Positions 19,940 to 46,721 of a DNA stretch of 64,000 bases are shown here, one piece after another (within the stretch, counting starts at the first letter, position 1; the number at the start of each line of letters is the position of its first letter). The notes below the pieces were generated by a model. That model ran no database searches and was not told the origin of the DNA. It saw nothing but the letters and a program-made list of their open reading frames with translations. Origin of the DNA: a virus; the IMG/VR virus record IMGVR_UViG_3300029368_000161; one strand, 5' to 3'. Both the position numbers and the translations under genes were made by a program.

Positions 19940-19978
19940 TTCCTTTGACAATTTTCCAGATGGCGCAATATGTGTATT
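19940..19978 (+). promoter_or_regulatory. Type-B promoter
   Basis: cctttgacaattttccagatggcgcaatatgtgtattg. Confidence 0.5.
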
Positions 19979-20115: not shown

Positions 20116-20184
20116 TCTTTTACAAGACCGCACGAAGCGGCGCAAAAACCACATAAACATGACAAAATACAGGGAGATTAAAAA

Positions 20185-22551: not shown

Positions 22552-22590
22552 TTTTTGACGTTTGTTTAAATGGCGCAATATTCATAACGA
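22552..22590 (+). promoter_or_regulatory. Type-B promoter driving mini-array M1
   Basis: ttttttgacgtttgtttaaatggcgcaatattcata, about 70 nt upstream of the first M1 repeat. Confidence 0.45.
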
Positions 22591-22659: not shown

Positions 22660-22893
22660 GTTGCACCACGCAAGGGTGCAGGGGTGAAATATTATACTGA
22701 ATCGTCGCTGCCTGCATAGATATAGTTGCATCCCTTATGGGATGTATGGGTTGAAATTCAATAGAAACAGATGCATTCGGAGGTGTTACAAGTTGCACCC
22801 CCGCAAGGGGTGCATGGGTTGAAAATAAGAAATGGTAGGAAGGAATTCAGATATGAACATTAGTTGCATCCCGCAAGGGTGCAGGGGTGAAGT
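22660..22893 (+). CRISPR. Mini CRISPR array M1: 4 degenerate type I-C-like repeats, 3 spacers
   Basis: Repeats are gttgcaccacgcaagggtgcaggggtgaaat, gttgcatcccttatgggatgtatgggttgaaat, gttgcacccccgcaaggggtgcatgggttgaaaat and gttgcatcccgcaagggtgcaggggtgaag. Spacers are 34-36 nt. Spacer 2 (tcaatagaaacagatgcattcggaggtgttacaa) recurs in M3. Confidence 0.7.
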
Positions 22894-23052: not shown

Positions 23053-23700
23053 ATGTCAAAAACAAAAGGACTATCAAAGAAGAAAAAATTACTAAAAACG
23101 CTCATACATAAATACCTTCCATTGCAGGTACTACTTACTGTCTTTTTGTATGCAGTAATTGTATTTATTAACATTCCAATTAATAAATGGCTTACTCTCA
23201 ACTGTCAGAAATGGTCAAGTGGGGAATATCATTTTTATGATGCATTTTTTATTCTTCCATTTGCTGAACTGTTAATTTTTGCCATTATGTCTGCCGTTAT
23301 TTGCGCTGTTTATTATTTTGTCAGTGGAATAATCGCATATAGGAATTACTGTTACATTCCACTTACAGAAGATGAAATCAAGAAAAAAGGATTTAAAAAT
23401 GCAGATGAGTATTTTGCTTATGTGTGCAACATGTGTTCTTATGGTTTTAAAAATAATAAAGACTACATTCTTGTTGGTGATGAAGACCTCCAAAAAATGT
23501 TAACTACCTGTCTGCAGGTATTTCCTGATAATGGGACAATTTTTGGAATAAACCGCCATATGGTACGAAATATCATATGGGATCCTGATTTTCTTTCCGC
23601 ACTTGCACTAGCCAGTGACCAAAGGGCGGAAATCATCAATGGACGTGTTGTATTGTCTGGCACCACAAAAGATGGTGACAGAAAAGAATATAAGATATAA
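23053..23700 (+). CDS. array-associated membrane protein, paralog family 2 (MSKTKGxSKKK..., 2 TM segments)
   Basis: 215 aa, about 50% identical to the 46073 product. Begins about 160 nt after the last M1 repeat. Confidence 0.6.
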   Translation: MSKTKGLSKKKKLLKTLIHKYLPLQVLLTVFLYAVIVFINIPINKWLTLNCQKWSSGEYHFYDAFFILPFAELLIFAIMSAVICAVYYFVSGIIAYRNYCYIPLTEDEIKKKGFKNADEYFAYVCNMCSYGFKNNKDYILVGDEDLQKMLTTCLQVFPDNGTIFGINRHMVRNIIWDPDFLSALALASDQRAEIINGRVVLSGTTKDGDRKEYKI

Positions 23701-33104: not shown

Positions 33105-33142
33105 ATCTTTGACGATTTTTCAAAAGGCGCAATATGTATAGT
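33105..33142 (+). promoter_or_regulatory. Type-B promoter
   Basis: atctttgacgatttttcaaaaggcgcaatatgtatagtg. Confidence 0.5.
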
Positions 33143-33300
33143 GTAAAGGTCATAAACCGAGCTGCCAGGGTTACCGGCTGGCAGAAAATCCTTTCGAAAA
33201 ATGTTTACGTTCCGGGAAATCCCCGGAAAGGATAGTGGGTACGCAGCGCAAGTTATTCCGGGTTCGACTCCCGGATATCCTTTTTCAAAATTGCAGGAAA
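33143..33300 (+). promoter_or_regulatory. L1 structured 5' leader RNA, copy b
   Basis: gtaaaggtcataaaccgagctgccagggttaccggctggcagaaaatcctttcgaaaaatgtttacgttccgggaaatccccggaaAGGATAgtgggtacgcagcgcaagttattccgggttcgactcccggaTATCCTTTTT. Outer stem AAAGGATA/TATCCTTT. Confidence 0.5.
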
Positions 33301-34456: not shown

Positions 34457-34508
34457 GAAAGAAGCCGGGGAATCCCGACTTTTCTGCTGCATTGTGTGTA
34501 TATTTTAA

Positions 34509-34582
34509 CGCCGCCTGCGGGATTCGAACCCGCGGATAAAGAGTTCAAAGCTCCCTGCGTTAACCTTTTCGCCAAGGCGGAG
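34509..34582 (-). tRNA. tRNA-Gln(TTG)-like (terminal acceptor pair mismatched)
   Basis: Reverse complement folds with T-arm GCGGG-TTCGAAT-CCCGC. Anticodon stem GGGAG/CTCTT with loop CTTTGAA. No encoded CCA. Confidence 0.5.
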
Positions 34583-34650
34583 CACACCCGGAAGGACTCG
34601 AACCCTCGTTACCGGTTTTGGAGACCAGTTTCTGTCCATCAGACAGGTGC
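34583..34650 (-). tRNA. tRNA-Trp(CCA)
   Basis: Anticodon loop CTCCAAA flanked by stem CTGGT/ACCGG. T-loop TTCGAGT. Acceptor GCACCTG/CGGGTGT has G.U pairs. Confidence 0.55.
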
Positions 34651-34654
34651 GTAA

Positions 34655-34725
34655 CAGGCGATAATGGAATCGAACCATTGTTTTCTGAGTCAGAATCAGA
34701 TGTCTTACCATTGAACGAATCGCCC
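34655..34725 (-). tRNA. tRNA-Gln(CTG)
   Basis: Acceptor GGGCGAT/ATCGCCT. Anticodon stem TCTGA/TCAGA with loop TTCTGAC. T-arm AATGG-TTCGATT-CCATT. Confidence 0.6.
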
Positions 34726-34727
34726 AG

Positions 34728-34801
34728 TATCCCCAAAGGGACTCGAACCCTTAACCGACAGATTAGAAATCTGTTGCTCTTTCCAATTGAGCTATGGGGA
34801 T
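34728..34801 (-). tRNA. tRNA-Arg(TCT)
   Basis: Clean cloverleaf: ATCCCCA-TA-GCTC-AATTGGAAA-GAGC-A-ACAGA-TTTCTAA-TCTGT-CGGTT-AAGGG-TTCGAGT-CCCTT-TGGGGAT-A. Confidence 0.8.
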
Positions 34802-34807
34802 ATATAG

Positions 34808-34897
34808 CGCAGACACCGGGGATCGAACCCGGACAGCGGGTGTGCCGCATGCCACATTAGCAGTGTGGAGGGGTACCATTTACCTTTATATGTCTGC
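34808..34897 (-). tRNA. tRNA-Ser(GCT)-like, 90 nt with long variable arm (D-arm atypical)
   Basis: Anticodon stem-loop CCACA-CTGCTAA-TGTGG. Variable arm GCGG-CACA-CCGC. T-arm CCGGG-TTCGATC-CCCGG. Acceptor GCAGACA/TGTCTGC. Confidence 0.5.
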
Positions 34898-34902
34898 ATA
34901 AG

Positions 34903-34974
34903 AGGCATCGGAGGGGATCGAACCCTCGCCTTCCGGGTTGCAGCCGGACGCCTTCGCCGTTTGGCTACGATGCC
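34903..34974 (-). tRNA. tRNA-Cys(GCA)
   Basis: GGCATCG-TA-GCC...GGC-TCCGG-CTGCAAC-CCGGA-..GAGGG-TTCGATC-CCCTC-CGATGCC-T. The U73 discriminator is typical of Cys. Confidence 0.8.
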
Positions 34975-35004
34975 ATATAATTCTTCCCGATAAGAGAAGA
35001 TGAG

Positions 35005-35088
35005 CGCTGGGGCAGGGAGTCGAACCCTGATATCCTTTCGGAATGACGGTTTTCAGGACCGTTGCTTTACCAGTTGAGCCACCACAGC
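35005..35088 (-). tRNA. tRNA-Ser(TGA) with long variable arm
   Basis: Anticodon stem ACGGT/ACCGT with loop CCTGAAA. Variable arm TCC-GAAA-GGA. T-arm CAGGG-TTCGACT-CCCTG. 3-bp D stem GCT/AGC. Confidence 0.6.
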
Positions 35089-35333
35089 AAAAATAAAAGC
35101 ATACACCTCTCAATCGAAAGATGTATGCTTTGCAATTCCAGGTATTTCCAATATTCTCCCGGAAATTTCCCTACAATGACCACATTTCTTTCAATTTGAG
35201 ACAATATTTATTTGCACGACAACTACGCCAGATACATGACTGCGACTGACTCATACTTGCCTGTGAATATTGTCTCATTACTGCTGTAATCATTGATTTT
35301 CCCTTCCTTTCCTTGGTTTTCTTGAATATTTAG

Positions 35334-35407
35334 TGTGTCTGGTGGGACTTGAACCCGACGACCCCACGATTAAAAGTCGCGTGCTCTGCCAACTGAGCTA
35401 CAGACAC
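35334..35407 (-). tRNA. tRNA-Lys(TTT)
   Basis: GTGTCTG-TA-GCTC-AGTTGGCA-GAGC-A-CGCGA-CTTTTAA-TCGTG-GGGTC... acceptor CAGACAC-A. Strongly resembles Bacillus tRNA-Lys. The T stem has irregular pairing. Confidence 0.7.
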
Positions 35408-35412
35408 ATAAG

Positions 35413-35484
35413 CGGATCAGGAGGGAATCGAACCCTCATCTTCCGGTAGACAGCCGGATGTACTAGCCGCTATACTACAGATCC
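35413..35484 (-). tRNA. tRNA-Asp(GTC)
   Basis: Anticodon stem TCCGG/CCGGA with loop CTGTCTA. T-arm GAGGG-TTCGATT-CCCTC. One T.T mismatch in the acceptor stem. Confidence 0.65.
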
Positions 35485-35488
35485 ATAA

Positions 35489-35561
35489 AGCTCCCGTCCG
35501 GCTTCGAACCGGAAACCTTCTGATTACAAGTCAGATGCACTACCAGTTGTGCTACAGGAGC
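35489..35561 (-). tRNA. tRNA-Thr(TGT)
   Basis: GCTCCTG-TA-GCAC-AACTGGTA-GTGC-A-TCTGA-CTTGTAA-TCAGA-AGGTT-TCCGG-TTCGAAG-CCGGA-CGGGAGC-T. Confidence 0.8.
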
Positions 35562-35645
35562 AGGAACACTTCCGACGGGTGCTGCCCCGCTATCTCCGCC
35601 GTGACAGGGCGGTGACTCTGTTGTTTGTCCTCGGAAGTAAATAAG

Positions 35646-35727
35646 TGCGCCGGGGAGGACTCGAACCTCCGGTGTTTCTTTGTGGCTGATTTACAGTCAG
35701 CTGCTGTCGCCTCTGAGCCACCGACGC
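35646..35727 (-). tRNA. tRNA-Tyr(GTA), 82 nt with extended variable region
   Basis: Acceptor GCGTCGG/CCGGCGC. Anticodon stem GCTGA/TCAGC with loop CTGTAAA. T-arm GGAGG-TTCGAGT-CCTCC. Confidence 0.65.
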
Positions 35728-35732
35728 ATAAG

Positions 35733-35804
35733 CTGGTCCGGAGGGTCTCGAACCCTCAACGCCCCGGTTAACAGCCGGGTGCTCTACCATTGAGCTACGG
35801 ATCA
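35733..35804 (-). tRNA. tRNA-Asn(GTT)
   Basis: D-arm GCTC-AATGGTA-GAGC. Anticodon stem CCCGG/CCGGG with loop CTGTTAA. T-arm GAGGG-TTCGAGA-CCCTC. One A.C mismatch in the acceptor. Confidence 0.7.
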
Positions 35805-35805
35805 G

Positions 35806-35877
35806 AGCATGTGACGGGTCTCGAACCCGCCCGTCCTGCTTGGAAGGCAGGTGTGCCGCCAACAACACTTCACATGC
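35806..35877 (-). tRNA. tRNA-Gly(TCC)
   Basis: Acceptor GCATGTG/CACATGC with discriminator U. Anticodon stem CCTGC/GCAGG with loop CTTCCAA. 4-nt variable loop. T-arm GCGGG-TTCGAGA-CCCGT. Confidence 0.7.
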
Positions 35878-35942
35878 ATGCGGATAAAAGAAGTGCCTGT
35901 TTTCTCTTATCCATTCAGTTTTTTTACCGCATCGCTGCGGAG

Positions 35943-36014
35943 TGGACAGGAGTGGTAACGATCCACCCTGTAAGGATTTTCAGTCCTTCGCTAATCCATC
36001 TCAGCTACCTGTCC
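35943..36014 (-). tRNA. tRNA-Phe(GAA)-like with non-canonical T-loop (ATCGTTA)
   Basis: Acceptor GGACAGG/CCTGTCC (perfect 7 bp). 8-9 is TA. Anticodon stem AAGGA/TCCTT with loop CTGAAAA. T-arm GGTGG-ATCGTTA-CCACT lacks the T54/A58 identities. It lies 65 nt away from the main cluster. Confidence 0.45.
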
Positions 36015-37289: not shown

Positions 37290-37622
37290 TTGAAATGTTT
37301 GACATGCAAGAAACACTGGTCGCAGGGAGGCCGCTGTTCAGAGAACGTGAGAAACTGCCTGCATTATGAGGAAGAACCAAGAGGAAAAATGGTCCGCACA
37401 GAACTGTCTTTTCGTATGGATGCAGAGGCGGAAACTCCGGTGGTCAGATTTGGAGAGAAAATACTGGTTTCCGATGGTTCAAAAGCGGTCGAGATGACTG
37501 TGGTCAAGATCAACTGGGTTAATCTTCGGGATATGCTCTGCAATGTATCCGCGGATTATCATGAGAATGAGATGCCGCGATTTGAGAAAGAAAAGAAGTT
37601 CAAAGCATTACATGGAAAATAG
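37290..37622 (+). CDS. hypothetical protein (110 aa, TTG start)
   Basis: AAAGGAGGAGG RBS. A TTG start gives the 110-aa product, whereas the nearby ATG gives only 26 aa. Start assignment uncertain. Confidence 0.4.
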   Translation: MKCLTCKKHWSQGGRCSENVRNCLHYEEEPRGKMVRTELSFRMDAEAETPVVRFGEKILVSDGSKAVEMTVVKINWVNLRDMLCNVSADYHENEMPRFEKEKKFKALHGK

Positions 37623-37781
37623 TTGCATTCCAGTGGAATGCATGGGGTGAAAGAAATAGGCAAATCGCATGACAATTTCTGAAATTAAATTGTTGCGCTC
37701 CCGTGGAGGGGGGCGTATGGATTGAAATGTGGAATCCTGTGATTGGCACATACTTGGGTGTAGTGCAGAAAAAGTGACCCA

Positions 37782-38129: not shown

Positions 38130-38170
38130 AACTTTTGACGATTTTTTAAATGGCGCAATATGTATCATGT
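38130..38170 (+). promoter_or_regulatory. Type-B promoter
   Basis: acttttgacgattttttaaatggcgcaatatgtatcatg. Confidence 0.5.
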
Positions 38171-38345
38171 AAAGGTCATAAACCGAGCTGCCAGGGTTAT
38201 CGGCTGGCAGAAATCTTTTCGATATTTGTTTACACTCCGGGGAAACCCGGAAGGGGTAGTGAGGACGCAGCGTGTGCTGTTTCCGGGTTCGATTCCCGGG
38301 TATCCCTTTTGACTGCCACATACGGTCTTCTCAAAATTCAGCCGT
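38171..38345 (+). promoter_or_regulatory. L1 structured 5' leader RNA, copy c
   Basis: gtaaaggtcataaaccgagctgccagggttatcggctggcag...tccggggaaacccggaa-GGGGTA-gtgaggacgcagcgtgtgctgtt-tccgggttcgattcccgg-GTATCCC-tttt. The loop change GGTTACCGG to GGTTATCGG and the outer stem GGGGTA/TATCCC covary relative to copies a and b. Confidence 0.5.
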
Positions 38346-38588
38346 CTGCGGCCTGTGGAACTTTCCACTGGACCAAAATAACGATAACCGCCAGAATAAC
38401 AGCAGCGTGCGTTGGCGTGAGAACTATCGGCGCACAGGGATTACTCCTTTCATATTTATCTATCAAACCTTTCCGTACATCGTATGGAAAGGTTATGGGA
38501 CAGCAGGTGCATAGACATGAACTATTCCGGGATCGTTTCCCGGATGTTCCATTTTTAAAACATTAAAACAAATCATAGGAGGGAATTG

Positions 38589-39314
38589 ATGATGGAGAAA
38601 GAAGTAGTATATGTTGCAGAACTGGATTCCGATGTTGATGATGTCGTTGCGGCACATTACTTATTTAACGAGGGTGTGTTAAAGTGTGTAGTATGCGATC
38701 CATATCCAAGAACACCGGAGGGGTTGGCACGAAAGGGAAAGCTGGAAACGCTTGGCATCGATGTGGTTAAGAAAATGCCACCGGTTGCAAAATATGTGTT
38801 TGTTGGCGGCGCTCTTACGGCTGTTGCTGGCTATATCCGGATGCACCATGTCGACTGGCTGGTAATGAACGGAGGCTTTGTTGGAGCAAATATTGCGACC
38901 TTTGAACTGGATAAGTTCAAGGGGAAGAACACTGTCCGTACCTTCAATTTCAACTGCGATGTTGTGGCTGCAGATACGGTTTTGAAAACTGATGAGAAGC
39001 ATATTTCTCATATTGTTCTTGTCGGAAAAAACGTCTGCCATGACGTCCGAAATACGAAAAATGGTCTCTGGAGTGGCGAGAAATACAAGAAATTGTTCGA
39101 TGAGTACCGGGTTAAGGATGAGAAGCGTCAACACGACTTGCTTGCCTGCCATGAGGGGCTTGCATTTCTGCGGGGAACCAATGCGATCTGTGAGTATGAG
39201 ATGGTAAGACCATACAACACAGGCTTGAATGGCAAGCTGACGCAGTGGGGTAGCACAAAAACCATGGAAACACCATATCGCGAAGTGCTTGCTGCTGTTG
39301 GCTACCAGAATTAA
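38589..39314 (+). CDS. nucleoside hydrolase-like protein (IU-NH family signature DxDxxxDD)
   Basis: N-terminal VYVAELDSDVDDVVAAHYL matches the IUNH aspartate cluster. 241 aa. ATAGGAGGGAATTG-ATG start. Confidence 0.5.
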   Translation: MMEKEVVYVAELDSDVDDVVAAHYLFNEGVLKCVVCDPYPRTPEGLARKGKLETLGIDVVKKMPPVAKYVFVGGALTAVAGYIRMHHVDWLVMNGGFVGANIATFELDKFKGKNTVRTFNFNCDVVAADTVLKTDEKHISHIVLVGKNVCHDVRNTKNGLWSGEKYKKLFDEYRVKDEKRQHDLLACHEGLAFLRGTNAICEYEMVRPYNTGLNGKLTQWGSTKTMETPYREVLAAVGYQN

Positions 39315-39316
39315 AA

Positions 39317-39488
39317 GCTGCATCATGTGCGGGGGTGTATGGATTGAAATGTCGGAGTATGGTGTAAGAATCATATATATTCCTACGTTGTGCTCCTCCC
39401 GGTTGGTGCATGGGTTGAAATATAGTTCTAAAAATGGTTGGAAGACCTGTTTTTTGGTTACACCCATTGTCAGCTGTAAACCACAGTT
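39317..39488 (+). CRISPR. Mini CRISPR array M2: 3 degenerate repeats, 2 spacers, starting 2 nt after the stop of the preceding gene
   Basis: gctgcatcatgtgcgggggtgtatggattgaaat / spacer gtcggagtatggtgtaagaatcatatatattcct / acgttgtgctcctcccggttggtgcatgggttgaaat / spacer atagttctaaaaatggttggaagacctgttttttg / gttacacccattgtcagctgtaaaccacagtt. Confidence 0.55.
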
Positions 39489-40119: not shown

Positions 40120-40992
40120 ATGAGAAAAAGTGTGAAAGATTTTGGAAATTTTGTAAGAAAAGACAATTACCCGGAGCTTCCAGAAGAATTGAAAGAATTT
40201 AACTATTTTTTGAGTGATGGCGAGACGGGACATGTGATCATGGCTGTGCCTGAGCACACTTTGAATAAAGCAGAAGAAAATGTGGATGAACTGGATGATT
40301 ACGAATGTCCAGTTCCAGTGGCATATGTTCTTAAGAATGGCTATCGGCTGTATAAGAACCATGTAATATGCCAGGTTCCGTACGATGAGAAACTGGGGAT
40401 GCGTATTCCGGAAGAATATTACGAACCGTCGATTATTTCTACAGATGCCGGGGAAGCAGAGAATCCGGTGTCCGGAGAGTTCCCTTATGAGAAAAGGAAA
40501 TGCTATCCAGAATTTGCAAACCATGCAGAAGCTGTAGTTGCGGACATCGTTAAGGATTACGTGCAGATCCGCGTATTTTTTAAAAATCCTACAGAAAACG
40601 AGATTGCACAGTTTTCTCCGGATGCCAGACTGAAAATTCGTTTTACGGAGATGGATGGAACCTGTCTGTTTACCGTTAAAGCTGGTGATTTGTCATGGAT
40701 GGATGCACCATACCATGCAAAACTTGCAAAAGATTTGTCTGGATTCGACTTTACAGGTGAAGGTGAGATTCCGTTATATCTCCTCCTGATCGACTCATCG
40801 AATGGTGAGGTCAAAGCGGTTCGAAATGTCCAGTTGTCAGAAGAGTTTTCCAGCAAATTGAGAAATCTGGTGGATCGTCAGGTCAACTCTGATTTTGATA
40901 AAAAGAAATATGCGGATATATTGTCCAACATTTATCTCCTTTTTTCATCGGATGAGCTGGCGGATGCCAGCACCATTAAGTGTCAGTGGTAG
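40120..40992 (+). CDS. hypothetical protein (290 aa)
   Basis: RBS CAAGGAGAAGGCAGAGAAA-ATG. Extended -10 tgtggTATACT upstream at about 40068-40078. Confidence 0.55.
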   Translation: MRKSVKDFGNFVRKDNYPELPEELKEFNYFLSDGETGHVIMAVPEHTLNKAEENVDELDDYECPVPVAYVLKNGYRLYKNHVICQVPYDEKLGMRIPEEYYEPSIISTDAGEAENPVSGEFPYEKRKCYPEFANHAEAVVADIVKDYVQIRVFFKNPTENEIAQFSPDARLKIRFTEMDGTCLFTVKAGDLSWMDAPYHAKLAKDLSGFDFTGEGEIPLYLLLIDSSNGEVKAVRNVQLSEEFSSKLRNLVDRQVNSDFDKKKYADILSNIYLLFSSDELADASTIKCQW

Positions 40993-41012
40993 GTAAGAAG
41001 ATATACTTTACT

Positions 41013-41231
41013 GTTGCGCCCCATTGGGTGCATGGGTTGAAATCTTTATGACCTTCTGAAAAGTGAGGGCATCTTAGTTGCACCCCCGCAAGGGATGTAT
41101 GGGTTGAAATTCAATAGAAACAGATGCATTCGAAGGCGTTACAAGTTGCACCCCGCGAGGGGTGTATGGGTTGAAATTGCAGAAAGCTCAGGATTGGAAG
41201 GTTGCATCCTATGGGATGCATGGATTGAAAC
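41013..41231 (+). CRISPR. Mini CRISPR array M3: 4 repeats, 3 spacers; the middle repeat-spacer-repeat unit is near-identical to M1
   Basis: gttgcgccccattgggtgcatgggttgaaat / ctttatgaccttctgaaaagtgagggcatctta / gttgcacccccgcaagggatgtatgggttgaaat / tcaatagaaacagatgcattcgaaggcgttacaa / gttgcaccccgcgaggggtgtatgggttgaaat / tgcagaaagctcaggattggaag / gttgcatcctatgggatgcatggattgaaac. Confidence 0.7.
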
Positions 41232-41329
41232 GAACATATTTGTTATTATTTATTATTGAGATCAGAAAGGTCTGCAGTCAGTTAATCTGGCTGCAGATTT
41301 TTTTTTGCAATTTTTTAAAAATTTTCCAA

Positions 41330-41370
41330 AATCTTTTGACGATTTTTTAAAAGGCGCAATATACATATTG
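41330..41370 (+). promoter_or_regulatory. Type-B promoter (first of two tandem copies upstream of cas5c)
   Basis: atcttttgacgattttttaaaaggcgcaatatacatattgaagggataaacaggggcttaccg. The +1 region TATTGAAGGRATAAACAGGGGCTTRCCG is shared with the 41593 copy. Confidence 0.5.
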
Positions 41371-41580
41371 AAGGGATAAACAGGGGCTTACCGTTTGTTT
41401 CTTCAATAAGAGTTTTTCTCTTATATGCCTCCTTAAGTTTCCTGCGCTGCATTTACAGCATTTTGGCAGCGCAGGGGGAATCCACAGGACTGCATTTGAC
41501 GTTGTGTGGCGGCCTGCTCATCCGGTTCAACCCCGGAGGATTCCCTTACCGCTTATTTTTGCGGAGACAAAAATTTTAAA
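41371..41580 (+). promoter_or_regulatory. L2 structured leader (paralog of 11781-11999), ending in T-arm-like hairpin tccggttcaaccccgga
   Basis: cagcgcagggggaatccacaggactgcatttgacgttgtgtggcggcctgctcatccggttcaaccccggaggattccc, then a weak terminator ccgcttatttttgcgg. Confidence 0.4.
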
Positions 41581-41592
41581 AAATATTCAAAA

Positions 41593-41632
41593 ATTCTTTG
41601 ACGATTTTTTAAAAGGCGCAATATGTGTATTG
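41593..41632 (+). promoter_or_regulatory. Type-B promoter (second tandem copy, proximal to cas5c)
   Basis: ttctttgacgattttttaaaaggcgcaatatgtgtattgaaggaataaacaggggcttgccg. Confidence 0.5.
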
Positions 41633-41677
41633 AAGGAATAAACAGGGGCTTGCCGCTGTTGATTACCAGAGTTAAAA

Positions 41678-41709
41678 GTTGTGCCCCTATGGGGTGCATG
41701 GGTAATAAG
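41678..41709 (+). repeat. solitary degenerate CRISPR repeat in the cas5c 5' UTR
   Basis: gttgtgcccctatggggtgcatgggtaataag versus the M3 repeat gttgcgccccattgggtgcatgggttgaaat (hairpin-forming core retained). It ends 9 nt before the cas5c ATG. Confidence 0.55.
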
Positions 41710-41717
41710 AGAAAGGA

Positions 41718-42392
41718 ATGGAAAAAGAAAAAATGGGAGTGAAACTAAAAGTCTGGGGAGATTACGCATTGTTCACCAGACCAGAACTGAAAACTGAACG
41801 GTATACATACGATGTGATGACACCGTCGGCGGCTAGAGGAATTCTGGAATCTATCTACTGGCATCCGGGACTTCGGTGGTATGTAGACAAGATTCATGTA
41901 TTAAATCCGATTGCCACTACGAGCGTGAGAAGAAATGAACTTCTCAGTAAGATACCAAAGTCAAATATGCTGCAGGCATACAACGGCGGGGATGTGAAAC
42001 TGTATAACTCGTCAAGAGACGATATTATCCAGAGGGCATCTGTTATTCTCCGGGATGTCTGCTATGTGATTGAGGCGCATTTTGAAATGACAGGGAAAGC
42101 GAGCCCAACAGACAGCCCGGCAAAGTTTATAAGTATCTTTAACAACAGGGCAAGAAAAGGGGCATGTTATTCGATGCCGTATTTTGGTGTAAGGGAATTC
42201 CCGGCACACTTTGAACTCTGCGAAGGAGATGAAAAGATCCCATCCTACTATGAAGGACTTCCGGATAAAGATCTCGGGCTGATGCTTTATGATCTGGATT
42301 ACTCCTGCGGTAGAGATATCCAGCCAATGTATTATCATGCGATTATGAAAAACGGCGTTATTGACGTTGGAAACAGTGAGGTGCTTCGATGA
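41718..42392 (+). CDS. cas5c: Cas5c (type I-C Cas5d; Cascade subunit and pre-crRNA endoribonuclease)
   Basis: N-terminus ...KLKVWGDYALFTRPELKTERYTYDVMTPSAARGILESIYWHP matches the Cas5d hallmark. 224 aa. Overlaps cas8c by ATGA. Confidence 0.8.
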   Translation: MEKEKMGVKLKVWGDYALFTRPELKTERYTYDVMTPSAARGILESIYWHPGLRWYVDKIHVLNPIATTSVRRNELLSKIPKSNMLQAYNGGDVKLYNSSRDDIIQRASVILRDVCYVIEAHFEMTGKASPTDSPAKFISIFNNRARKGACYSMPYFGVREFPAHFELCEGDEKIPSYYEGLPDKDLGLMLYDLDYSCGRDIQPMYYHAIMKNGVIDVGNSEVLR

Positions 42393-44128
42393 TCCTTCAG
42401 TCACTTGTGAAATTATATGAAACACTTGCGGATCAGGGAAAAGTGTCCCGTCCTGGCTGGTGTAATGCAAAGGTATCCTATGCGGTGGTTTTAAACCATG
42501 ATGGGACGATTAAAGATATTGTTTCCGTGAAACAGAAAGTGAAGAGAGGAAAGAAGACTGTTGAAATTCCAATAATTATGCAGGTTCCAGAGATGGTCAC
42601 CCGCGCTAACAACATTGCCTCCAGCTTTCTCTGCGAAAATGCAAAGTATCTCTTTGGGATTGACGAAAAGATGAGTTTGCGTACACTGGAATGTTTTAAG
42701 GCGGCAAAGAAAAAACATCTTGATATTCTTGATGTTGTGGATTCACCTGTAGCACAGACGGTATGTAACTTTTTCCGTTCATGGGATCCGGAACAGGCGT
42801 TGGATCAACCGGCTGTTGCAAAACTTGCAGAAGAGTTTTATAAAGGCGGAAACCTCGTTTTTGAAGTAGATGGGGAATATGTGCATGATAATGAAGAAGT
42901 CCGCAGGGCATGGATGGATTACAGCAGTGTACCATATGAAATGGTAATTGGAAGATGCCTTATTACTGGAGAGGAAGCGGAGATTGCCCGCACGCACGGG
43001 AAAATCAAAGGAGTTCCGGGAGCACAGTCATCTGGCGCGTCGCTTGTATCATTTAACGGAGCATCCCTTGAGTCTTATGAAAAAACACAGAGCTACAACG
43101 CGCCGATTAGCACCTATGCGGCGTATGCATATGTGACCGCGCTGAATTACTTGCTTTCTACGGACGGGTATCACAGCAAGGTAGGAGATTCCATGGTGGT
43201 TTTCTGGACAGATTCCGGGGATGTGGATGATGTGAGCAGACTGCGGAAGATGATGGGAAGCATCAATGAAAAGGATCACACCCCTACAGATACGGATGAA
43301 AAACTGTACGTCCTCTGCCTTGCACCAAATGCCGGGCGAATTGCAGTCCGGTTCTTCTATGAGGATGCGATCGGGGTAATCTGGGAAAACCTGTCCGAAC
43401 ATGCCAGTCGGATGAAGATTGTAAAACCAGTATTTGAGGATCAAGAATTTATCAATATCTGGCAGATGCTCATGGAGACAGTCAACCAGAATCTTACAGA
43501 TAAAACACCTGTCCCGCATATGTCAGCAATGACGTTACAGTCAGTCATTTCGGATACACCGTATCCGCAGAGTCTGTATGCAGGTGTGTTATCTCGTATC
43601 CGCGCGGAGCACAAAGGTGTTACTTACAGAAAAGCATCGATTATTAAAGCTTTTTTAATAAAGAACTACAAATGGGAGGAAGGAAAAAATATGGAAGCAT
43701 TAAATGAAGGCTGTAAGGATCGGGCATATATCCTTGGAAGACTGTTTGCGGTTATGGAAAAGGCACAGAAAGAAGCAGTTGGCAATATCAACCAGACAAT
43801 TTGTGATAAGTTTTACAATTCCGCGTGCACAACACCAAGATCGATCTTTCCAGTACTGATCAGGCTATCTAACAGTCATTTAAGTAAGTTGAAACGGACA
43901 AAACCGGGGAGAGGATATTATTTTACAGCTAAAATGCAGGATTTAATGGATAAAATTCCGGTAACAGATGATGATCCGGGATTCCCGCGGCGTTTCTCAT
44001 ATGAGGATCAGGGTAAGTTTGCACTTGGTTATTATCATCAGATGCGGGCGGAATATACAAGCAGTAAGTTAAAAGATAATGATTCAGAAGGTGATCAGAC
44101 AAATGCAGAGAATATGGAGGAAAACTAA
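42389..44128 (+). CDS. cas8c: Cas8c (Csd1, type I-C large subunit)
   Basis: 579 aa, of the size expected for Cas8c/Csd1. Assigned from the conserved order cas5c-cas8c-cas7c and translational coupling to cas5c (ATGA overlap). Confidence 0.7.
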   Translation: MILQSLVKLYETLADQGKVSRPGWCNAKVSYAVVLNHDGTIKDIVSVKQKVKRGKKTVEIPIIMQVPEMVTRANNIASSFLCENAKYLFGIDEKMSLRTLECFKAAKKKHLDILDVVDSPVAQTVCNFFRSWDPEQALDQPAVAKLAEEFYKGGNLVFEVDGEYVHDNEEVRRAWMDYSSVPYEMVIGRCLITGEEAEIARTHGKIKGVPGAQSSGASLVSFNGASLESYEKTQSYNAPISTYAAYAYVTALNYLLSTDGYHSKVGDSMVVFWTDSGDVDDVSRLRKMMGSINEKDHTPTDTDEKLYVLCLAPNAGRIAVRFFYEDAIGVIWENLSEHASRMKIVKPVFEDQEFINIWQMLMETVNQNLTDKTPVPHMSAMTLQSVISDTPYPQSLYAGVLSRIRAEHKGVTYRKASIIKAFLIKNYKWEEGKNMEALNEGCKDRAYILGRLFAVMEKAQKEAVGNINQTICDKFYNSACTTPRSIFPVLIRLSNSHLSKLKRTKPGRGYYFTAKMQDLMDKIPVTDDDPGFPRRFSYEDQGKFALGYYHQMRAEYTSSKLKDNDSEGDQTNAENMEEN

Positions 44129-44129
44129 G

Positions 44130-45041
44130 ATGAGCACACCAATTAAGAACAGATATGATTTCGTAGTATTATTCGACGTAGAGAATGGAAATCCGAACGG
44201 TGATCCGGATGCCGGAAATATGCCGAGAGTTGATCCAGAGACTGGCATCGGGCTTGTGACAGATGCCTGCATAAAGCGCAAGATCCGTAATTATGTGGAA
44301 ACTGTAAAAGAAGATGCAGCCGGGTTCAAGATCTATATTAAAGAGGGGGTCCCGCTGAACCGGAGTGACCTTAAGGCAGTCGAAAGTCTTGGTATTGACG
44401 TCGGTGACGACAAAAATGCACTTGAAGATGTAAAGAAGCTGAAAAAGACAGATGAAGATGTGGATCTTAAGCTCCGTGACTATATGTGTAGTAATTTCTA
44501 TGATATCCGTACATTTGGTGCTGTCTTGACTACCTTTACAAAGGCGGCATTAAACTGTGGGCAGGTACGTGGCCCGGTACAGATTGGTTTTGCAAAAAGT
44601 ATTGATCCTGTTTTCAGCCAGGATATTACTGTAACCAGAGTTGCAATCACAACGGAAAAGGATGCGGAAAAGAAAAATACAGAAATGGGAAGAAAGAGTA
44701 TTATTCCTTATGGACTTTACCGTGTGGAGGGATATATTTCTGCTAATCTTGCCCGTAAGACCACCGGCTTTTCTGAAGACGATCTGGAACTGCTTTGGGA
44801 AGCAATCATTAACATGTTTGAGAATGACCATTCCGCAGCACGCGGGAAGATGGCAGTGCGTGAGCTCATCGTATTCAAGCATAACAGCGAGCTTGGCAAT
44901 TGTCCATCGTACAAACTGTTTGAAACTGTTGATGTTAAGAAGAATGATGGTGTTGAGTTTCCTCGTAAATATTCCGATTATGCAGTGACTATTCATGAGG
45001 ATGCGATTCCGGATGGCGTGACAATGACTCGCAAAATCTAA
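44130..45041 (+). CDS. cas7c: Cas7c (Csd2/DevR family, type I-C backbone subunit)
   Basis: MSTPIKNRYDFVVLFDVENGNPNGDPDAGNMPRVDPETGIGLVTDACIKRKIRNYVE. The GNPNGDPD motif is the Csd2/Cas7 signature. RBS GGAGGAAAACTAAG-ATG. Confidence 0.85.
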   Translation: MSTPIKNRYDFVVLFDVENGNPNGDPDAGNMPRVDPETGIGLVTDACIKRKIRNYVETVKEDAAGFKIYIKEGVPLNRSDLKAVESLGIDVGDDKNALEDVKKLKKTDEDVDLKLRDYMCSNFYDIRTFGAVLTTFTKAALNCGQVRGPVQIGFAKSIDPVFSQDITVTRVAITTEKDAEKKNTEMGRKSIIPYGLYRVEGYISANLARKTTGFSEDDLELLWEAIINMFENDHSAARGKMAVRELIVFKHNSELGNCPSYKLFETVDVKKNDGVEFPRKYSDYAVTIHEDAIPDGVTMTRKI

Positions 45042-45290
45042 AAAGATTTCCAGAGATTACAAGGCAACCCGCGTTTTGCGGGCTGCATCTGCTTGGGTTA
45101 TGCCGAAATGTAGAATTCCGGTGCGAACTGAAAGCTTACATAGCTTCTCTGGGAGACTCGCACCGGAAATGGAGGTATTAGTGTACAAAAAGAACACAAA
45201 ACCCAACTGTATAAGGCCGTTTGAGAACAATTAATTAGAGGAATTGTTTATATTTTGGCGATCGGGAGAGTTGTTTCTGTTCACTTTTAC

Positions 45291-46058
45291 AGCTACGCCC
45301 CATGGAGGGGCGTATGGATTGAAAATACCGCAACAATTAAAGGCAATGAAAATCTTGTACGCTACGCCCCATGGAGGGGCGTATGGATTGAAAATGATTG
45401 TTATTGTTTTTTATTCATGGAGAGGAAAGCTACGCCCCATGGAGGGGCGTATGGATTGAAAAGTAAGGTTTCGTCTCGAAGCCTTTATTCTGTTTTGCTG
45501 CGCCCCATGGAGGGGCGTATGGATTGAAATACCAAAATCTTTTGACATTCTTATAAATGGTAACAGCTACGTCTTATGGGGTACGTATGGATTGAAATCA
45601 TAATAATTGTAGAGATCTCAATACAAAATAAAGCTGCGTCTCATGGAATACGTATGGATTGAAATGAAAAGGCGAGTTTGCGAAAGCAGATATTGGAATG
45701 TTGCGTCTCGTGGAGTACGTATGGATTGAAATTCCAACTTTAACTACATAACTATCCTGATAAACTTGCTGCACCCCATGGAGAGTGTATGGATTGAAAT
45801 TTAAAAAATCATGGATAACATCTGCGATAAGACGTTGCACCTCGCTAGGGGTGTATGGGTTGAAATTTCCATAATCGGTAGCCAATTATTATCATTAGGT
45901 GTTGCACCCCATAGAGGGTGTATGGATTGAAATTATATAAAAATGATGAATATGTAAAAAAAATAAAAGAGTTACGCTCCATGGAGTGCGTATGGCTTGA
46001 AACCTCTTATTTTTTTAAAGATATCACAATTACGCCCAAAGTGGGCTTACGTAAATTT
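45291..46058 (+). CRISPR. Type I-C CRISPR array: 11 repeats (33-34 nt, consensus GYTRCRCCCCATGGAGRGKGTATGGATTGAAAT) plus a terminal degenerate repeat; 10-11 spacers of 26-38 nt
   Basis: The repeat end GGATTGAAAT/C and internal hairpin match canonical I-C repeats. The leader side is adjacent to cas7c. Repeats degenerate toward the distal end (ttacgctccatggagtgcgtatggcttgaaac, then ttacgcccaaagtgggcttacgtaaatt, which runs into the RBS of the 46073 gene). Spacers are listed in the findings. Confidence 0.85.
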
Positions 46059-46072
46059 AAAGGAGAAAAGTA

Positions 46073-46721
46073 CATGTCAAAAACAAAAGGAATATCAAAA
46101 AAGAAAGATATATTAAAGGTATTTTGGAATGAGTGTGCAGTATTTAAGGTAGTTGTTTGTATTCTTGCGTATGTGATACTCGGCTTTATCAATATACCAA
46201 TTAACAGGTGGCTTACATTTCATGTACCTAAATGGTCAGATGGGAAACTACATGATATAACAGGATCATTTTTTGTTCTTCCTATCCTTGAAGTATTAGC
46301 GGTCACTTTAATTTATCTTATCGCTAATGGATGCTTTTATTTCATCAGCAAGATGATCGCGTACAGGAATTACTGTTACATTCCGCTTACGGAAGATGAA
46401 ATTAAAGGAAAGAAATTTAAGAATGCAAATGAGTATTTTTCCTATGTCCTCAATGTCCTTTCCTATGGTTTTAAGAATGAAAAAGAAAATCTCCAGGTTA
46501 GTGATGATGATCTTCGAGAAATGCTTATAACTTGTCTGATTGTATTCCCTGATAATGGGACAATATTTCAGATAAAACCAGAAACTGCGTGGAATGTTTC
46601 AGACGACATCCTTTTCTCCGAAGCCGTTGAATTGAATTGCGGAAAAGCAGAAATAATTGATAAGCATGTTGTATTGTCTGGTGATAATAGAAACGGCAAA
46701 AGAGAAGAATATACAGTGTGA
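46073..46721 (+). CDS. array-associated membrane protein, paralog family 2
   Basis: MSKTKGISKKKDILKVFWNECAVFKVVVCILAYVILGFINIPINRWLTFHVPKW... has 2 TM segments. Its RBS AAAGGAGAAAAGTAC-ATG lies inside or just after the terminal degenerate repeat. Confidence 0.6.

What the first reader, a model, noticed from the sequence alone, without database searches (positions are those of the whole stretch)
41678..41720. Degenerate solitary CRISPR repeat embedded in the cas5c 5' UTR, 9 nt upstream of the start codon
gttgtgcccctatggggtgcatgggtaataag keeps the repeat stem-loop (gcccc-ta-tgggg) of the neighbouring arrays but loses the 3' handle (GTTGAAAT becomes GTAATAAG). Cas5c is the I-C endoribonuclease that recognises this hairpin. 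A repeat in the operon's own leader would allow Cas5c-dependent cleavage of, or binding to, the cas mRNA, giving negative autoregulation. A similar terminal degenerate repeat supplies the RBS context of the 46073 gene at the distal end of the main array. This places a protein-coding gene under array transcription and Cas5c processing.
Basis: partly seen in the sequence, partly recalled or inferred. Interest (0 to 1): 0.65.

Follow-up and report, generated by a model that had tools for sequence, protein, structure and literature searches.

The report
Truncated CRISPR repeat in cas leader
A mobile element (probably a phage) with a stripped-down type I-C CRISPR system carries a cut-down CRISPR repeat in the untranslated leader of its own cas genes; it keeps only the parts the Cas5c RNA-cutting enzyme needs, so Cas5c probably cuts or binds its own messenger, though no expression data test this.

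Summary
The repeat is real. 41678-41709 (GTTGTGCCCCTATGGGGTGCA|TGGGTAATAAG) is the only non-array sequence in the window that a covariance model of the 21 bona fide repeats finds (21.1 bits, E=0.005). It lies about 50 nt downstream of one of ten copies of an element-specific promoter-like box and directly upstream of the Shine-Dalgarno sequence of a cas5c-cas8c-cas7c operon. No cas3 or adaptation genes were found in the window.

It keeps the canonical hairpin register and the U22-G23-G24 Cas5c determinant, and lacks the distal handle. All five leader haplotypes found in metagenomes show the same pattern. They fall into two clades whose leaders are only 59% identical. Drift alone would preserve this in about 0.1-1% of simulations.

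None of about 175 bacterial or viral I-C loci has such an element.

- The conserved start codon is ATG 41733, not 41718, so the repeat ends 23 nt upstream, not 9.
- The "terminal degenerate repeat" before the 46074 gene is not statistically detectable, though a relative has a real repeat there.

Best reading (about 0.45): a cis-acting Cas5c cleavage or binding site that couples cas mRNA fate to free Cas5c. Rivals are a former terminal repeat kept by gene conversion, and a Cas-independent hairpin. A CreR-type guide RNA was tested and rejected.

The parts
41013..41231 (+). Upstream mini-array of 4 repeats and 3 spacers, starting 20 nt after the stop of the 290-aa ORF (40120-40992)
   Evidence: R1 hits of 39.5-49.5 bits. 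In L006 it is reduced to one solitary repeat; in L206 it is expanded to 6 repeats.
41271..41307 (+). Terminator-like hairpin (TCTGCAGTCAG-TTAA-TCTGGCTGCAGA) followed by a run of T. It separates the mini-array from the downstream promoters.
   Evidence: Read directly from the sequence. Conserved in L006 and L084. Not listed by the simple terminator scan.
41311..41570 (+). Extra cassette: promoter-box copy (41336-41362) plus a structured, tRNA-like RNA region. Absent from the L006 clade.
   Evidence: No Rfam match.
41573..41636 (+). Promoter-like element of the cas operon: TTGACG 41598-41603 and the invariant GGCGCAATAT 41615-41624. One of 10 same-strand copies in the window.
   Evidence: 10 matches against 0.03 expected. 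88% identical to the L006 copy. Promoter function is inferred, not shown.
41637..41664 (+). Predicted 5'-proximal leader hairpin (AACAG...CUGUU core)
   Evidence: MFE and centroid fold. L006 also has a 5' hairpin, but the alignment between the two is ambiguous.
41678..41709 (+). Truncated (psi) repeat. Stem 41680-41687/41691-41698, loop 41688-41690. Predicted Cas5c cut between 41698 and 41699. UGG at 41699-41701. Degenerate 11-nt pseudo-handle 41699-41709.
   Evidence: Cleavage position is inferred from PMC8524198.
41710..41717 (+). Shine-Dalgarno sequence AGAAAGGA, immediately after the psi-repeat
   Evidence: Read from the sequence. AAAGGAATGGAAA is invariant in all haplotypes.
41733..42392 (+). 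cas5c. The conserved start is ATG 41733; an in-frame ATG at 41718 is probably not used.
   Evidence: Pfam Cas_Cas5d 2.5e-38. TIGR01876 7.9e-52. Start-codon argument. Matches D. vulgaris Cas5c structures with the VIEAHFE motif conserved.
42389..44128 (+). cas8c (csd1)
   Evidence: Pfam 5e-165. TIGR01863.
44079..45041 (+). cas7c (csd2). The likely start is near 44130, giving 303 aa as in relatives.
   Evidence: Pfam 1e-107. TIGR02589. Gene calls of 303 aa in L084, L206 and L207.
45042..45291 (+). cas7-to-array intergenic region and array leader. It has no promoter box of the family and no terminator-like site, so the array is probably co-transcribed with the cas genes.
   Evidence: Co-transcription is inferred.
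45292..46003 (+). Main array of 11 repeats. It is gaining spacers at the leader end in natural populations.
   Evidence: Leader-proximal spacer differences among the near-identical genomes window, L004 and L005.
46027..46061 (+). Possible fully decayed terminal repeat in front of the SD and ATG (46074) of a 215-aa membrane-protein gene
   Evidence: Not detected by the model (no more than 2.4 bits). Only a 5-bp hairpin remains. In L206 the homologue follows a real repeat by 26 nt.

Best explanation
The element is a CRISPR repeat truncated after position 26. It sits where the first repeat of an array-type transcription unit would sit: promoter box, then the shared initial transcribed sequence GAAGGAAnTAAACAG, then about 50 nt of leader, then the repeat. 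Here it is followed by the Shine-Dalgarno sequence of cas5c-cas8c-cas7c instead of a spacer. The operon belongs to a mobile element, probably a phage of Lachnospiraceae. No cas3 or adaptation genes were found in the window.

Proposed mechanism, in steps:
1. Inferred: the operon, and probably the main array behind it, is transcribed from the box at 41598-41624.
2. Shown by sequence and folding: the nascent leader forms the repeat hairpin in the canonical register, followed by UGG.
3. Inferred from published Cas5c biochemistry: the element's own Cas5c recognises the stem base plus UGG and cuts between 41698 and 41699. This removes the 5' triphosphate and the 5' hairpin. The cas mRNA is left with a 5'-OH and an 11-nt degenerate pseudo-handle that abuts the Shine-Dalgarno sequence.
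4. Inferred: this lowers cas expression when free Cas5c is abundant. One route is exposure of the 5'-OH end to RNase J-type decay. The other is Cas5c (with or without Cas7) staying on the pseudo-handle and occluding the Shine-Dalgarno sequence and start codon. When pre-crRNA titrates Cas5c, the leader stays intact.

The loss of the distal handle fits a site that has to be cut or bound but must not nucleate a full Cascade.
For: - The element is a real repeat derivative and unique in the window.
- It has the canonical fold and register.
- The retained parts are the published Cas5c determinants: stem base and U22-G23-G24, with loop and 5' overhang dispensable, and products carrying 5'-OH and 2',3'-cyclic phosphate (PMC8524198).
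- Five leader haplotypes in two clades all keep hairpin plus UGG and all lack the distal handle.
- Between the clades the stem differs by one double change (C-G to U-A) and three one-sided wobble changes, with no broken pairs. The loop changes from UAU to UUCG.
- The leader is 59% identical between clades, against 88% for the promoter and 88% for cas5c.
- Neutral simulation: both lineages keep at least 6 bp plus TGG in about 0.1% of runs at 59% identity and 1% at 70%.
- The element is specific to this lineage. It was absent from 78 metagenomic, 79 genomic and 17 viral I-C loci.
- Of the ten promoter copies, only the array unit at 22555 and the cas unit are followed by a repeat, and these two share the initial transcribed sequence.
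- The system appears active. Cas5c, Cas8c and Cas7c are full length. The Cas5c catalytic-region motif is conserved relative to D. vulgaris Cas5c. The main array gains leader-proximal spacers among near-identical genomes.
- 5'-OH RNAs are RNase J1 substrates in B. subtilis (PMC3328962).
- An engineered Csy4 hairpin in a 5' UTR gives 20-40-fold knock-down (PMC4604432).
Against: - There are no transcript data. The transcription start, cleavage and any effect on expression are all unverified.
- Only two independent clades exist, so covariation support is thin. Within the L006 clade, 0 of 23 variable sites in the psi core against about 6 of 72 elsewhere is not significant.
- The L006-clade hairpin is weak (-5.7 kcal/mol, z=-0.8) and is not in the MFE of the whole leader.
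- BhaCas5c processing is also inhibited by mutations in the 3' overhang, so the decayed handle might prevent cleavage.
- Origin as a terminal repeat explains the handle decay without any regulatory role.
- Gene conversion from the many other repeats in the genome could maintain the hairpin without selection for function.
- The direction of regulation is undetermined. Bound Cas5c could equally protect the mRNA.
Confidence: 0.45

Rival explanations
1. Non-functional relic. The psi-repeat is the former terminal repeat of the upstream mini-array. It was orphaned when a terminator-promoter cassette was inserted between the array and cas5c. Its hairpin persists through recency or through gene conversion from the many array repeats in the same genome.
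For: - Terminal repeats typically decay at their 3' end. Examples: the L006 main-array terminal repeat GTCGCGCCCCGCGAGGGGTATATGGATTAAGG and the window's last repeats.
- In L206 a protein gene starts 26 nt after a terminal repeat, so 'repeat then SD then gene' arises simply by placing genes behind arrays.
- Both clades are truncated at the same point, after ATGG(G/A)T, which suggests one ancestral junction.
- Repeats in this genome are numerous and heterogeneous, so donors for conversion exist.
- The leader looks mosaic: 59% identical between flanks that are 88% identical.
Against: - The terminator-promoter insertion predates the clade split. Under drift at the observed leader divergence, both lineages would keep stem plus UGG in only about 0.1-1% of simulations.
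- Gene conversion should tend to restore the handle as well, and no haplotype shows that.
- The hairpin keeps the exact canonical register in both clades.
Confidence: 0.25
2. Cas-independent leader structure. The hairpin acts like any 5' UTR stem-loop, as an mRNA stabiliser, a pause or processing site for host RNases, or a spacer that keeps the Shine-Dalgarno sequence unpaired. Its repeat ancestry is incidental.
For: - Transcripts from several copies of the promoter family begin with hairpins.
- The leader fold leaves the Shine-Dalgarno sequence and start codon unpaired.
- Loop and stem sequences are free to vary.
Against: - This does not explain why UGG and the 2-nt overhang register are kept in every haplotype.
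- It does not explain why the hairpin remains recognisably repeat-like to the model (18-21 bits in the window clade, 15-18 bits in the other).
- The L006-clade stem is too weak (-5.7 kcal/mol) to be a good stabiliser.
Confidence: 0.1
3. RNA anti-CRISPR-like decoy (Racr / solitary repeat unit). The highly expressed leader hairpin sequesters the host's I-C Cas5c or Cas7 early in infection.
For: - Solitary repeats downstream of promoters in viruses act as Racrs, including a I-C example co-transcribed with acrIC5 (PMC10651486).
- The L006 clade has further solitary repeats right after ORF stop codons.
- The closest Cas5c homologues are in Lachnospiraceae with very similar repeats.
Against: - The element encodes its own Cas5c-Cas8c-Cas7c and an array that is gaining spacers. 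These would be poisoned by the same decoy.
- The element lies inside the cas operon leader, not in an acr locus.
- The handle that would recruit Cas7 is degenerate.
Confidence: 0.08
4. CreR/CreA-type degenerate mini-CRISPR. The psi-repeat is one flank of a crRNA-like guide that directs Cascade to a PAM-flanked, partly complementary site at the cas promoter, repressing transcription.
For: - Standalone repeats in cas intergenic regions often work this way (bioRxiv 2023.03.03.530964 and 2023.03.10.532045).
- The sequence at the putative transcript start (GTATTGAAGG; GTATTGAAAG in L006) weakly resembles the repeat 3' end.
Against: - No second repeat lies within 100 nt on either side.
- The handle needed for Cascade loading is the part that is lost.
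- Neither the 41-nt upstream nor the 36-nt downstream pseudo-spacer has an above-null TTC-flanked match in the window (12-14 of 20, null maximum 14-15).
- The same search gives a clear positive in L198 and L200: a run of 15, and 16-17 of 20.
- TGAAGG-like sequence follows most copies of the promoter box.
Confidence: 0.04

Closest known systems
CreR / CreA degenerate mini-CRISPRs (crRNA-like regulators of cas or toxin promoters; Li et al., Liu et al., Shmakov et al. 2023)
   Same: A repeat-derived element in the intergenic region just upstream of effector cas genes, with only part of the repeat conserved. The proposed outcome, cas autoregulation that senses how much Cas protein is occupied by crRNA, is the same.
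   Different: CreR acts in trans on DNA as a guide. It needs two psi-repeats, an intact 5' handle and a PAM-flanked partial target. Here there is one repeat, the handle is the part that is lost, no target was found, and the proposed action is in cis on the mRNA. True CreR-like I-C elements found in L198 and L200 show the opposite conservation: short stem, perfect handle.
Racr / viral solitary repeat units, e.g. RacrIC1 behind acrIC5 (Camara-Wilpert et al. 2023, PMC10651486)
   Same: A solitary I-C-type repeat on a mobile element, close to a promoter and co-transcribed with a protein gene.
   Different: Racrs are not associated with cas genes and work as decoys against the host system. This one lies in the leader of the element's own cas operon and has a degenerate handle.
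Terminal degenerate repeat of CRISPR arrays
   Same: The hairpin and cleavage site are kept and the 3' end has decayed. This is the likely evolutionary origin.
   Different: It is separated from the nearest array by a terminator, one or two promoter boxes and about 450 nt (200 nt in L006). No spacer precedes it in its transcription unit.
Engineered Csy4 (Cas6f) hairpins in mRNA UTRs (Borchardt et al. 2015, PMC4604432)
   Same: A CRISPR endoribonuclease recognition hairpin placed in a 5' UTR controls mRNA stability and translation. A hairpin in the 3' UTR leaves a stabilising protein-hairpin cap.
   Different: That system is synthetic, eukaryotic and uses Cas6f. This would be a natural case in which Cas5c acts on the mRNA that encodes it.
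tracr-L autorepression of type II-A cas operons (Workman et al.; bioRxiv 2020.05.21.102756)
   Same: A CRISPR RNA component repurposed for cas autoregulation.
   Different: tracr-L is a DNA-targeting natural single guide for Cas9, not an RNA cis-element.
Phage-borne I-C variants without Cas1, Cas2 or Cas3 (Al-Shayeb et al. 2020, PMC7162821)
   Same: A cas5-cas8-cas7-type module plus compact arrays on a large mobile element, with no adaptation genes and no cas3 found.
   Different: That paper does not describe a repeat in the cas leader or genes interleaved with mini-arrays.

Membership tests
Type I-C CRISPR repeat | 2-nt 5' overhang, 7-8-bp stem and 3-5-nt loop in the canonical register | tested here: met
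   Fold ..((((((((...))))))))..., -11.6 kcal/mol. Aligned to all 7 model pairs.
Type I-C CRISPR repeat | U22-G23-G24 immediately after the stem (Cas5c cleavage determinant) | tested here: met
   GCA|TGG at 41696-41701. Kept in all five haplotypes. The determinant is from PMC8524198.
Type I-C CRISPR repeat | Conserved 3' handle ...(G/A)TTGAAA(T/C) | tested here: not met
   TGGGTAATAAG against TGGGTTGAAAT. The model needs a 3-nt deletion. The L006 clade has TGGATGATGAT.
Type I-C CRISPR repeat | Tandem arrangement with spacer-length (about 67-nt) periodicity | tested here: not met
   The nearest repeats are at 41201 (477 nt upstream, beyond a terminator and promoters) and 45292 (3.6 kb downstream).
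CreR/CreA-type regulatory mini-CRISPR | Two (degenerate) repeats flanking a spacer-sized segment | tested here: not met
   With filters off, the model finds no second hit above 3.3 bits in 41560-41760.
CreR/CreA-type regulatory mini-CRISPR | Pseudo-spacer partly complementary to a PAM-flanked site at a cas or toxin promoter | tested here: not met
   The best TTC-flanked matches are at null level. The positive control in L198 and L200 is clearly above null. Only the 64-kb window was searched.
CreR/CreA-type regulatory mini-CRISPR | Intact 5' handle for effector loading | tested here: not met
   The distal handle is lost in all haplotypes.
Racr / viral solitary repeat unit | Solitary repeat on a mobile element, just downstream of a promoter | tested here: met
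   About 54 nt downstream of the conserved box. Promoter activity is inferred.
Racr / viral solitary repeat unit | Not associated with cas genes; inhibits the host's CRISPR-Cas by forming aberrant complexes | tested here: not met
   The first half of the feature fails: the element lies inside the leader of the cas5c-cas8c-cas7c operon. Inhibition itself cannot be tested with these tools.
Cis-acting endoribonuclease site in an mRNA leader (autoregulatory) | Recognition element for an RNase lies in the 5' UTR of the mRNA that encodes that RNase | tested here: inconclusive
   The position relative to the promoter box, Shine-Dalgarno sequence and start codon fits. The transcription start is not mapped.
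Cis-acting endoribonuclease site in an mRNA leader (autoregulatory) | Enzyme-dependent cleavage or binding that changes expression | not testable with these tools
   Needs RNA-end mapping, in vitro cleavage and reporter assays.

The most novel reading that the evidence does not exclude
In this group of mobile elements, CRISPR repeats serve as general RNA punctuation.

- Accessory genes end directly in repeats. The stop codon of the 110-aa ORF overlaps the first base of a repeat in both clades. Repeats follow the 242-aa ORF stop by 2 nt and the 290-aa ORF stop by 7-20 nt.
- The 215-aa gene family starts right after a terminal repeat and can sit between two arrays, as in L206.
- The cas5c-cas8c-cas7c mRNA is bracketed by the psi-repeat and the first repeat of the main array, like a 3.6-kb 'spacer'.

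Cas5c would then be the element's operon-processing RNase. It would define mRNA 5' and 3' ends and leave hairpin caps. The handle-less psi-repeat would be the sensor that sets Cas5c's own level.
Probability: 0.2. Interest if true: 0.7.

Novelty: new variant of a known kind. Interest (0 to 1): 0.45.

Why it matters
Known repeat-derived regulators of cas genes (CreR, CreA, tracr-L, scaRNA) all act as guides on DNA. A natural case in which the crRNA-processing nuclease acts in cis on its own messenger through a handle-less repeat would add an RNA-level feedback loop to CRISPR regulation. It would also be a natural counterpart of the engineered Csy4-hairpin switches.

The case is easy to test. The predicted cut is at a single phosphodiester bond (41698|41699). 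The element is 32 nt long. Two natural variants with different stems are available as controls.

The context matters too. This is a mobile element with no cas3 or cas1/2/4 found in the window, an array that still gains spacers, and genes interleaved with mini-arrays. That bears on how mobile elements use minimal CRISPR systems.

Tried and rejected
1. CreR-type guide model. I searched both pseudo-spacers, and all mini-array spacers, for TTC-flanked partial targets in the window. Everything was at null level. No second psi-repeat was found. The method was validated on L198-L200.
2. Generality. I scanned 300 nt upstream of cas5c in 78 metagenomic, 79 genomic and 17 viral I-C loci. No repeat-like hairpin plus UGG was found outside this lineage.
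3. GenBank phages. Only ordinary I-C loci with cas3 were hit (MT836695).
4. IMG/VR scans for the promoter box and for a protospacer of spacer 45531 found either nothing or chance hits. This lineage is absent from IMG/VR and from species-representative genomes.
5. Spacer targets. There were no matches in GenBank phages and none of significance in the local loci.
6. Rfam gave no family for the leader, the repeats or the tRNA-like RNAs.
7. Compensatory changes in the 5' leader hairpin. I first counted three or four, then dropped the count. An alternative sequence alignment (CAGG...CTTGCCG anchors with a 6-nt indel) shows that the two hairpins are not positionally equivalent.
8. Helicase 20185-22485 as a Cas3 substitute. 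It is RadD- or type-I-restriction-like, with no Cas3 family hit.
9. ATG 41718 as the start codon. Rejected on frame conservation, N-terminal homology and Shine-Dalgarno spacing.
10. Homologues of the 110-aa ORF, searched as a route to further cas-bearing lineages. Most lie in ordinary siphovirus-like contigs without CRISPR. Two (L206, L207) added leader haplotypes.
Full report
**Context**

The window looks like part of a large mobile element, most likely a phage.
- It has a cluster of 13 tRNA genes on the minus strand (34508-36014) plus one more tRNA gene.
- It encodes an NAD-dependent ligase, a CCA-adding enzyme, an SF2 helicase and a C5 methyltransferase.
- Several ORFs hit PHROG families.
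- Homologues of the 110-aa ORF at 37290 lie next to terminase, portal and capsid genes in other contigs.
- No structural genes lie in the window itself, so "phage" is an inference.

At 41733-45041 the window encodes full-length Cas5c, Cas8c and Cas7c of type I-C. I found no cas3, cas4, cas1 or cas2. The only large helicase is RadD-like. Only the larger ORFs were scanned against protein families.

Five arrays lie on the + strand:
- a main array of 11 repeats at 45292-46003;
- mini-arrays at 22660-22893 and 41013-41231 (4 repeats each);
- mini-arrays at 37622-37728 and 39317-39421 (2 repeats each).

The repeats are unusually heterogeneous but keep the hairpin: 89.8% of cells are paired and 4 of 8 pairs show double changes.

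Three mini-arrays begin 0-20 nt after the stop codon of a same-strand ORF.

Near-identical genomes (window, L004, L005) differ by one or two leader-proximal spacers in the main array. The system is therefore gaining spacers in nature even though the window encodes no adaptation genes.

**The observation**

41678-41709 reads GTTGTGCCCCTATGGGGTGCA|TGGGTAATAAG.

I built a covariance model from the 21 bona fide repeats, leaving the candidate out.
- It scores the candidate 21.1 bits, with E=0.0049 over the whole window and 1.5e-5 within the leader.
- Nothing else outside the arrays scores better than E=0.3.
- The RNA folds in the canonical repeat register: 2-nt overhang, 8-bp stem, UAU loop.
- The model alignment shows identity through ATGGGT, then a 3-nt gap in the handle.

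Two details do not hold.
1. The ATG at 41718 directly abuts the Shine-Dalgarno sequence AGAAAGGA. It is out of frame with cas5c in the relatives L006 (-1 nt) and L084 (-4 nt). The conserved N-terminus MGVKLKVWG aligns with bacterial Cas5c N-termini. The real start is therefore ATG 41733, 23 nt after the repeat.
2. The alleged degenerate terminal repeat in front of the 46074 gene scores no more than 2.4 bits. However, in relative L206 the homologous gene (56% identity) starts 26 nt after a near-canonical terminal repeat and is followed by a second array. The remark is therefore plausible as history, though not demonstrable in this window.

**Anatomy of the transcription unit**

A box TTGACG-N11-GGCGCAATAT occurs ten times in the window, always on the + strand, against 0.03 expected. 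The copies precede protein genes, three copies of a tRNA-like RNA, a mini-array (22555) and the cas operon (41598).

Only the array unit and the cas unit are followed by repeat-like sequence. These two, together with the extra cassette at 41336, share the first transcribed bases GAAGGAA(G)TAAACAG. The psi-repeat therefore sits exactly where the first repeat of an array-type unit sits.

Upstream, a terminator-like hairpin with a T-run (41271-41307) closes the preceding mini-array. Downstream, I found no terminator and no promoter box between cas7c and the main array. The cas genes and the array are therefore probably one transcript, bracketed by the psi-repeat and the first array repeat. That is an inference.

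**Comparative evidence**

The protein database of predicted sequences and the metagenome collection hold only one lineage with more than 66% Cas5c identity. It yields five leader haplotypes.
- Clade A: window = L004 = L005, and L206.
- Clade B: L006, L084 = L085, and L207. Cas5c in this clade is 94-95% identical to the window protein.

Between the clades, nucleotide identity is 88% for the promoter, 88% for cas5c and 85% for cas8c. The leader is only 59% identical.

Clade B nevertheless carries GTTGCATCTTCGGATGTA|TGGATGATGATG at the same place. It has the same register, a 6-bp stem, a UUCG loop and UGG, and its distal handle is again lost at the same point.

Relative to clade A, the stem shows one double change (C-G to U-A) and three one-sided wobble changes, with no broken pairs. 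L206 has a single substitution, in the loop-closing pair.

I ran a simple neutral simulation. At 59% identity both lineages keep at least 6 bp plus TGG in about 0.1% of runs, at 70% in about 1%, and at 80% in about 6%. With only two independent clades this is suggestive, not conclusive. Gene conversion from array repeats could give the same result.

The feature is not general.
- None of 78 metagenomic I-C loci with Cas5c no more than 66% identical has a repeat-like hairpin plus UGG within 300 nt upstream of cas5c.
- None of 17 viral loci does.
- Among 79 Lachnospiraceae-type genomic loci, the few relaxed hits lack both the repeat 5' prefix (GTC/GTT) and the handle, so none is repeat-like.

**Mechanism**

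Published work on Cas5c (PMC8524198) states four relevant points.
- The products carry 5'-OH and 2',3'-cyclic phosphate.
- For BhaCas5c, recognition centres on U22-G23-G24 and the stem base. The loop and 5' overhang are dispensable. Mutations in the 3' overhang also inhibit processing.
- SmuCas5c is more tolerant of substitutions at the tested positions flanking the cut (C20, G21, U22, G23).

The psi-repeat keeps the stem base and UGG in every haplotype. The window's Cas5c retains the VIEAHFE catalytic-region motif and the aromatic IYW motif of D. vulgaris Cas5c.

My best explanation is therefore that Cas5c recognises the leader hairpin and cuts at 41698|41699, or at least binds there.

The consequences are inferred. 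The 5' triphosphate and 5' hairpin are lost. The mRNA starts with an 11-nt pseudo-handle that abuts the Shine-Dalgarno sequence at 41710-41717. In B. subtilis such 5'-OH ends are RNase J1 substrates, as shown for glmS (PMC3328962), and the inferred host is also a Firmicute. Cas5c or Cas7 retained on the pseudo-handle would sit on the ribosome-binding site. Both routes give negative feedback that pre-crRNA would relieve by titrating Cas5c.

Engineered Csy4 hairpins behave in this way (PMC4604432).

The sign of regulation is not established. A bound Cas5c could also protect the mRNA.

**Rivals**

- *Relic.* Terminal repeats decay at their 3' ends (L006 terminal repeat). L206 shows that genes in this lineage can sit right behind terminal repeats. 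The psi-repeat may be the old terminal repeat of the upstream mini-array, orphaned by insertion of the terminator-promoter cassette. This explains the handle decay without invoking function. It needs gene conversion or luck to explain why the hairpin and UGG persist in both clades.
- *Cas-independent leader hairpin.* This does not explain why UGG and the register are retained.
- *Racr-type decoy* (PMC10651486). This conflicts with the element carrying its own Cascade and an array that is gaining spacers.
- *CreR-type guide*. I tested this and rejected it. There is no second repeat, no handle, and no PAM-flanked partial target.

The CreR-type search has a positive control. In L198, L199 and L200 (Cas5c 63-66% identical, no cas3 upstream), a divergently oriented degenerate repeat with a short stem and a perfect handle is followed by a pseudo-spacer. 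That pseudo-spacer pairs at 15 consecutive non-sixth positions with a TTC-flanked site at the cas5c promoter. Spacer and target covary between L198 and L200.

Guide-type elements therefore keep the handle and let the stem shrink. The psi-repeat here does the opposite, which fits a cleavage or binding site rather than a guide.

**Novelty and verdict**

Standalone repeat-like elements in cas loci and solitary repeats in viruses are known kinds. Phage I-C variants without Cas1, Cas2 and Cas3 are also known (PMC7162821).

What differs here is the combination: a single, handle-less repeat in the 5' leader of the effector operon on a mobile element, with a proposed cis, RNA-level action of Cas5c on its own messenger. 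I rate it a new variant of a known kind.

- Confidence in the mechanism is about 0.45.
- Interest is 0.45.
- It is real, lineage-specific and readily testable, but rests on two clades and has no expression data.

The most novel reading still open is that repeats punctuate mixed gene-and-array transcripts throughout this element, with Cas5c as the processing enzyme (probability about 0.2).

Noticed in passing
L198 700-870, L199 800-970, L200 500-640: CreR-like autorepression mini-CRISPR in type I-C loci that lack an upstream cas3. On the strand opposite cas5c lies a degenerate repeat with a 4-bp stem and a perfect handle (GTCTGGGAAACCAG|TGGATTGAAAT). Its pseudo-spacer pairs at 15 consecutive non-sixth positions with a TTC-flanked site at the cas5c promoter. 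Spacer and target covary between L198 and L200.
   Followed up: partly
window 11745, 13159, 19945, 22555, 28978, 33109, 37235, 38135, 41336, 41598: Ten same-strand copies of a conserved box, TTGACG-N11-GGCGCAATAT, with an A/T-rich upstream part (0.03 expected). The spacing to any TATAAT-like hexamer is atypical, so a sigma factor or regulator encoded by the element may be involved.
   Followed up: partly
window 19972-20120, 33136-33290, 38162-38320 (and 38400-38560); also 41473-41548: A conserved non-coding RNA family directly downstream of three promoter copies. It begins GTAAAGGTCATAAACCGAGCTGCCAGGG... and ends in a tRNA-like T-arm (TCCGGGTTCGAnTCCCGGA). A different T-arm and acceptor-like structure lies in the 41336 cassette. 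Neither ARAGORN nor Rfam calls them.
   Followed up: partly
window 45292-45530 vs L005 9575-9881 and L004 6930-7330: Genomes that are otherwise near-identical differ by one (L005) or two (L004) extra leader-proximal spacers. The array therefore gains spacers although the window encodes no cas1, cas2 or cas4.
   Followed up: partly
window 45531-45565: A main-array spacer shares 15 contiguous nt (CCAAAATCTTTTGAC) plus TAAATGG with the element's own promoter family (best match 41326; also the L006 cas promoter). There is no TTC PAM in register. It probably targets the homologous promoter of a competing relative. No protospacer was found in IMG/VR or GenBank phages.
   Followed up: partly
window 37620-37653, 39312-39350, 40990-41043; L006 3718-3750, 5748-5790: ORFs of 110, 242 and 290 aa end 0-20 nt before a repeat. 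For the 110-aa ORF the stop codon TAG overlaps the first G of the repeat in both clades. In the L006 clade the mini-arrays are reduced to solitary repeats. The layout resembles the published acrIC5-RacrIC1 bicistron.
   Followed up: partly
window 23053-23700 and 46074-46721; L206 12681-13382: Paralogous membrane-protein genes (51-56% identity) repeatedly sit just downstream of arrays. In L206 the gene lies between two arrays, 26 nt after a repeat. No Pfam or PHROG family matches.
   Followed up: partly
window 22758-22791 and 41111-41144: The same spacer, with 2 mismatches, is present in two different mini-arrays 18 kb apart. This indicates duplication of array segments within the element.
   Followed up: no
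window 45118-45166; L006 about 9392-9445: A conserved long hairpin in the cas7-to-array intergenic region (window CCGGTGCGA...TCGCACCGG; L006 GTGCGAACC...GGTTCGCAC). Its function is unknown.
   Followed up: no
L006 4230-4770: In the L006 clade the homologue of the 242-aa nucleoside-hydrolase-like ORF (window 38586-39314) appears frameshifted and truncated. The repeat that follows it has also decayed (GAGTTGAGACCTGTAGGGTGTAAGAGTTGAAAC).
   Followed up: no
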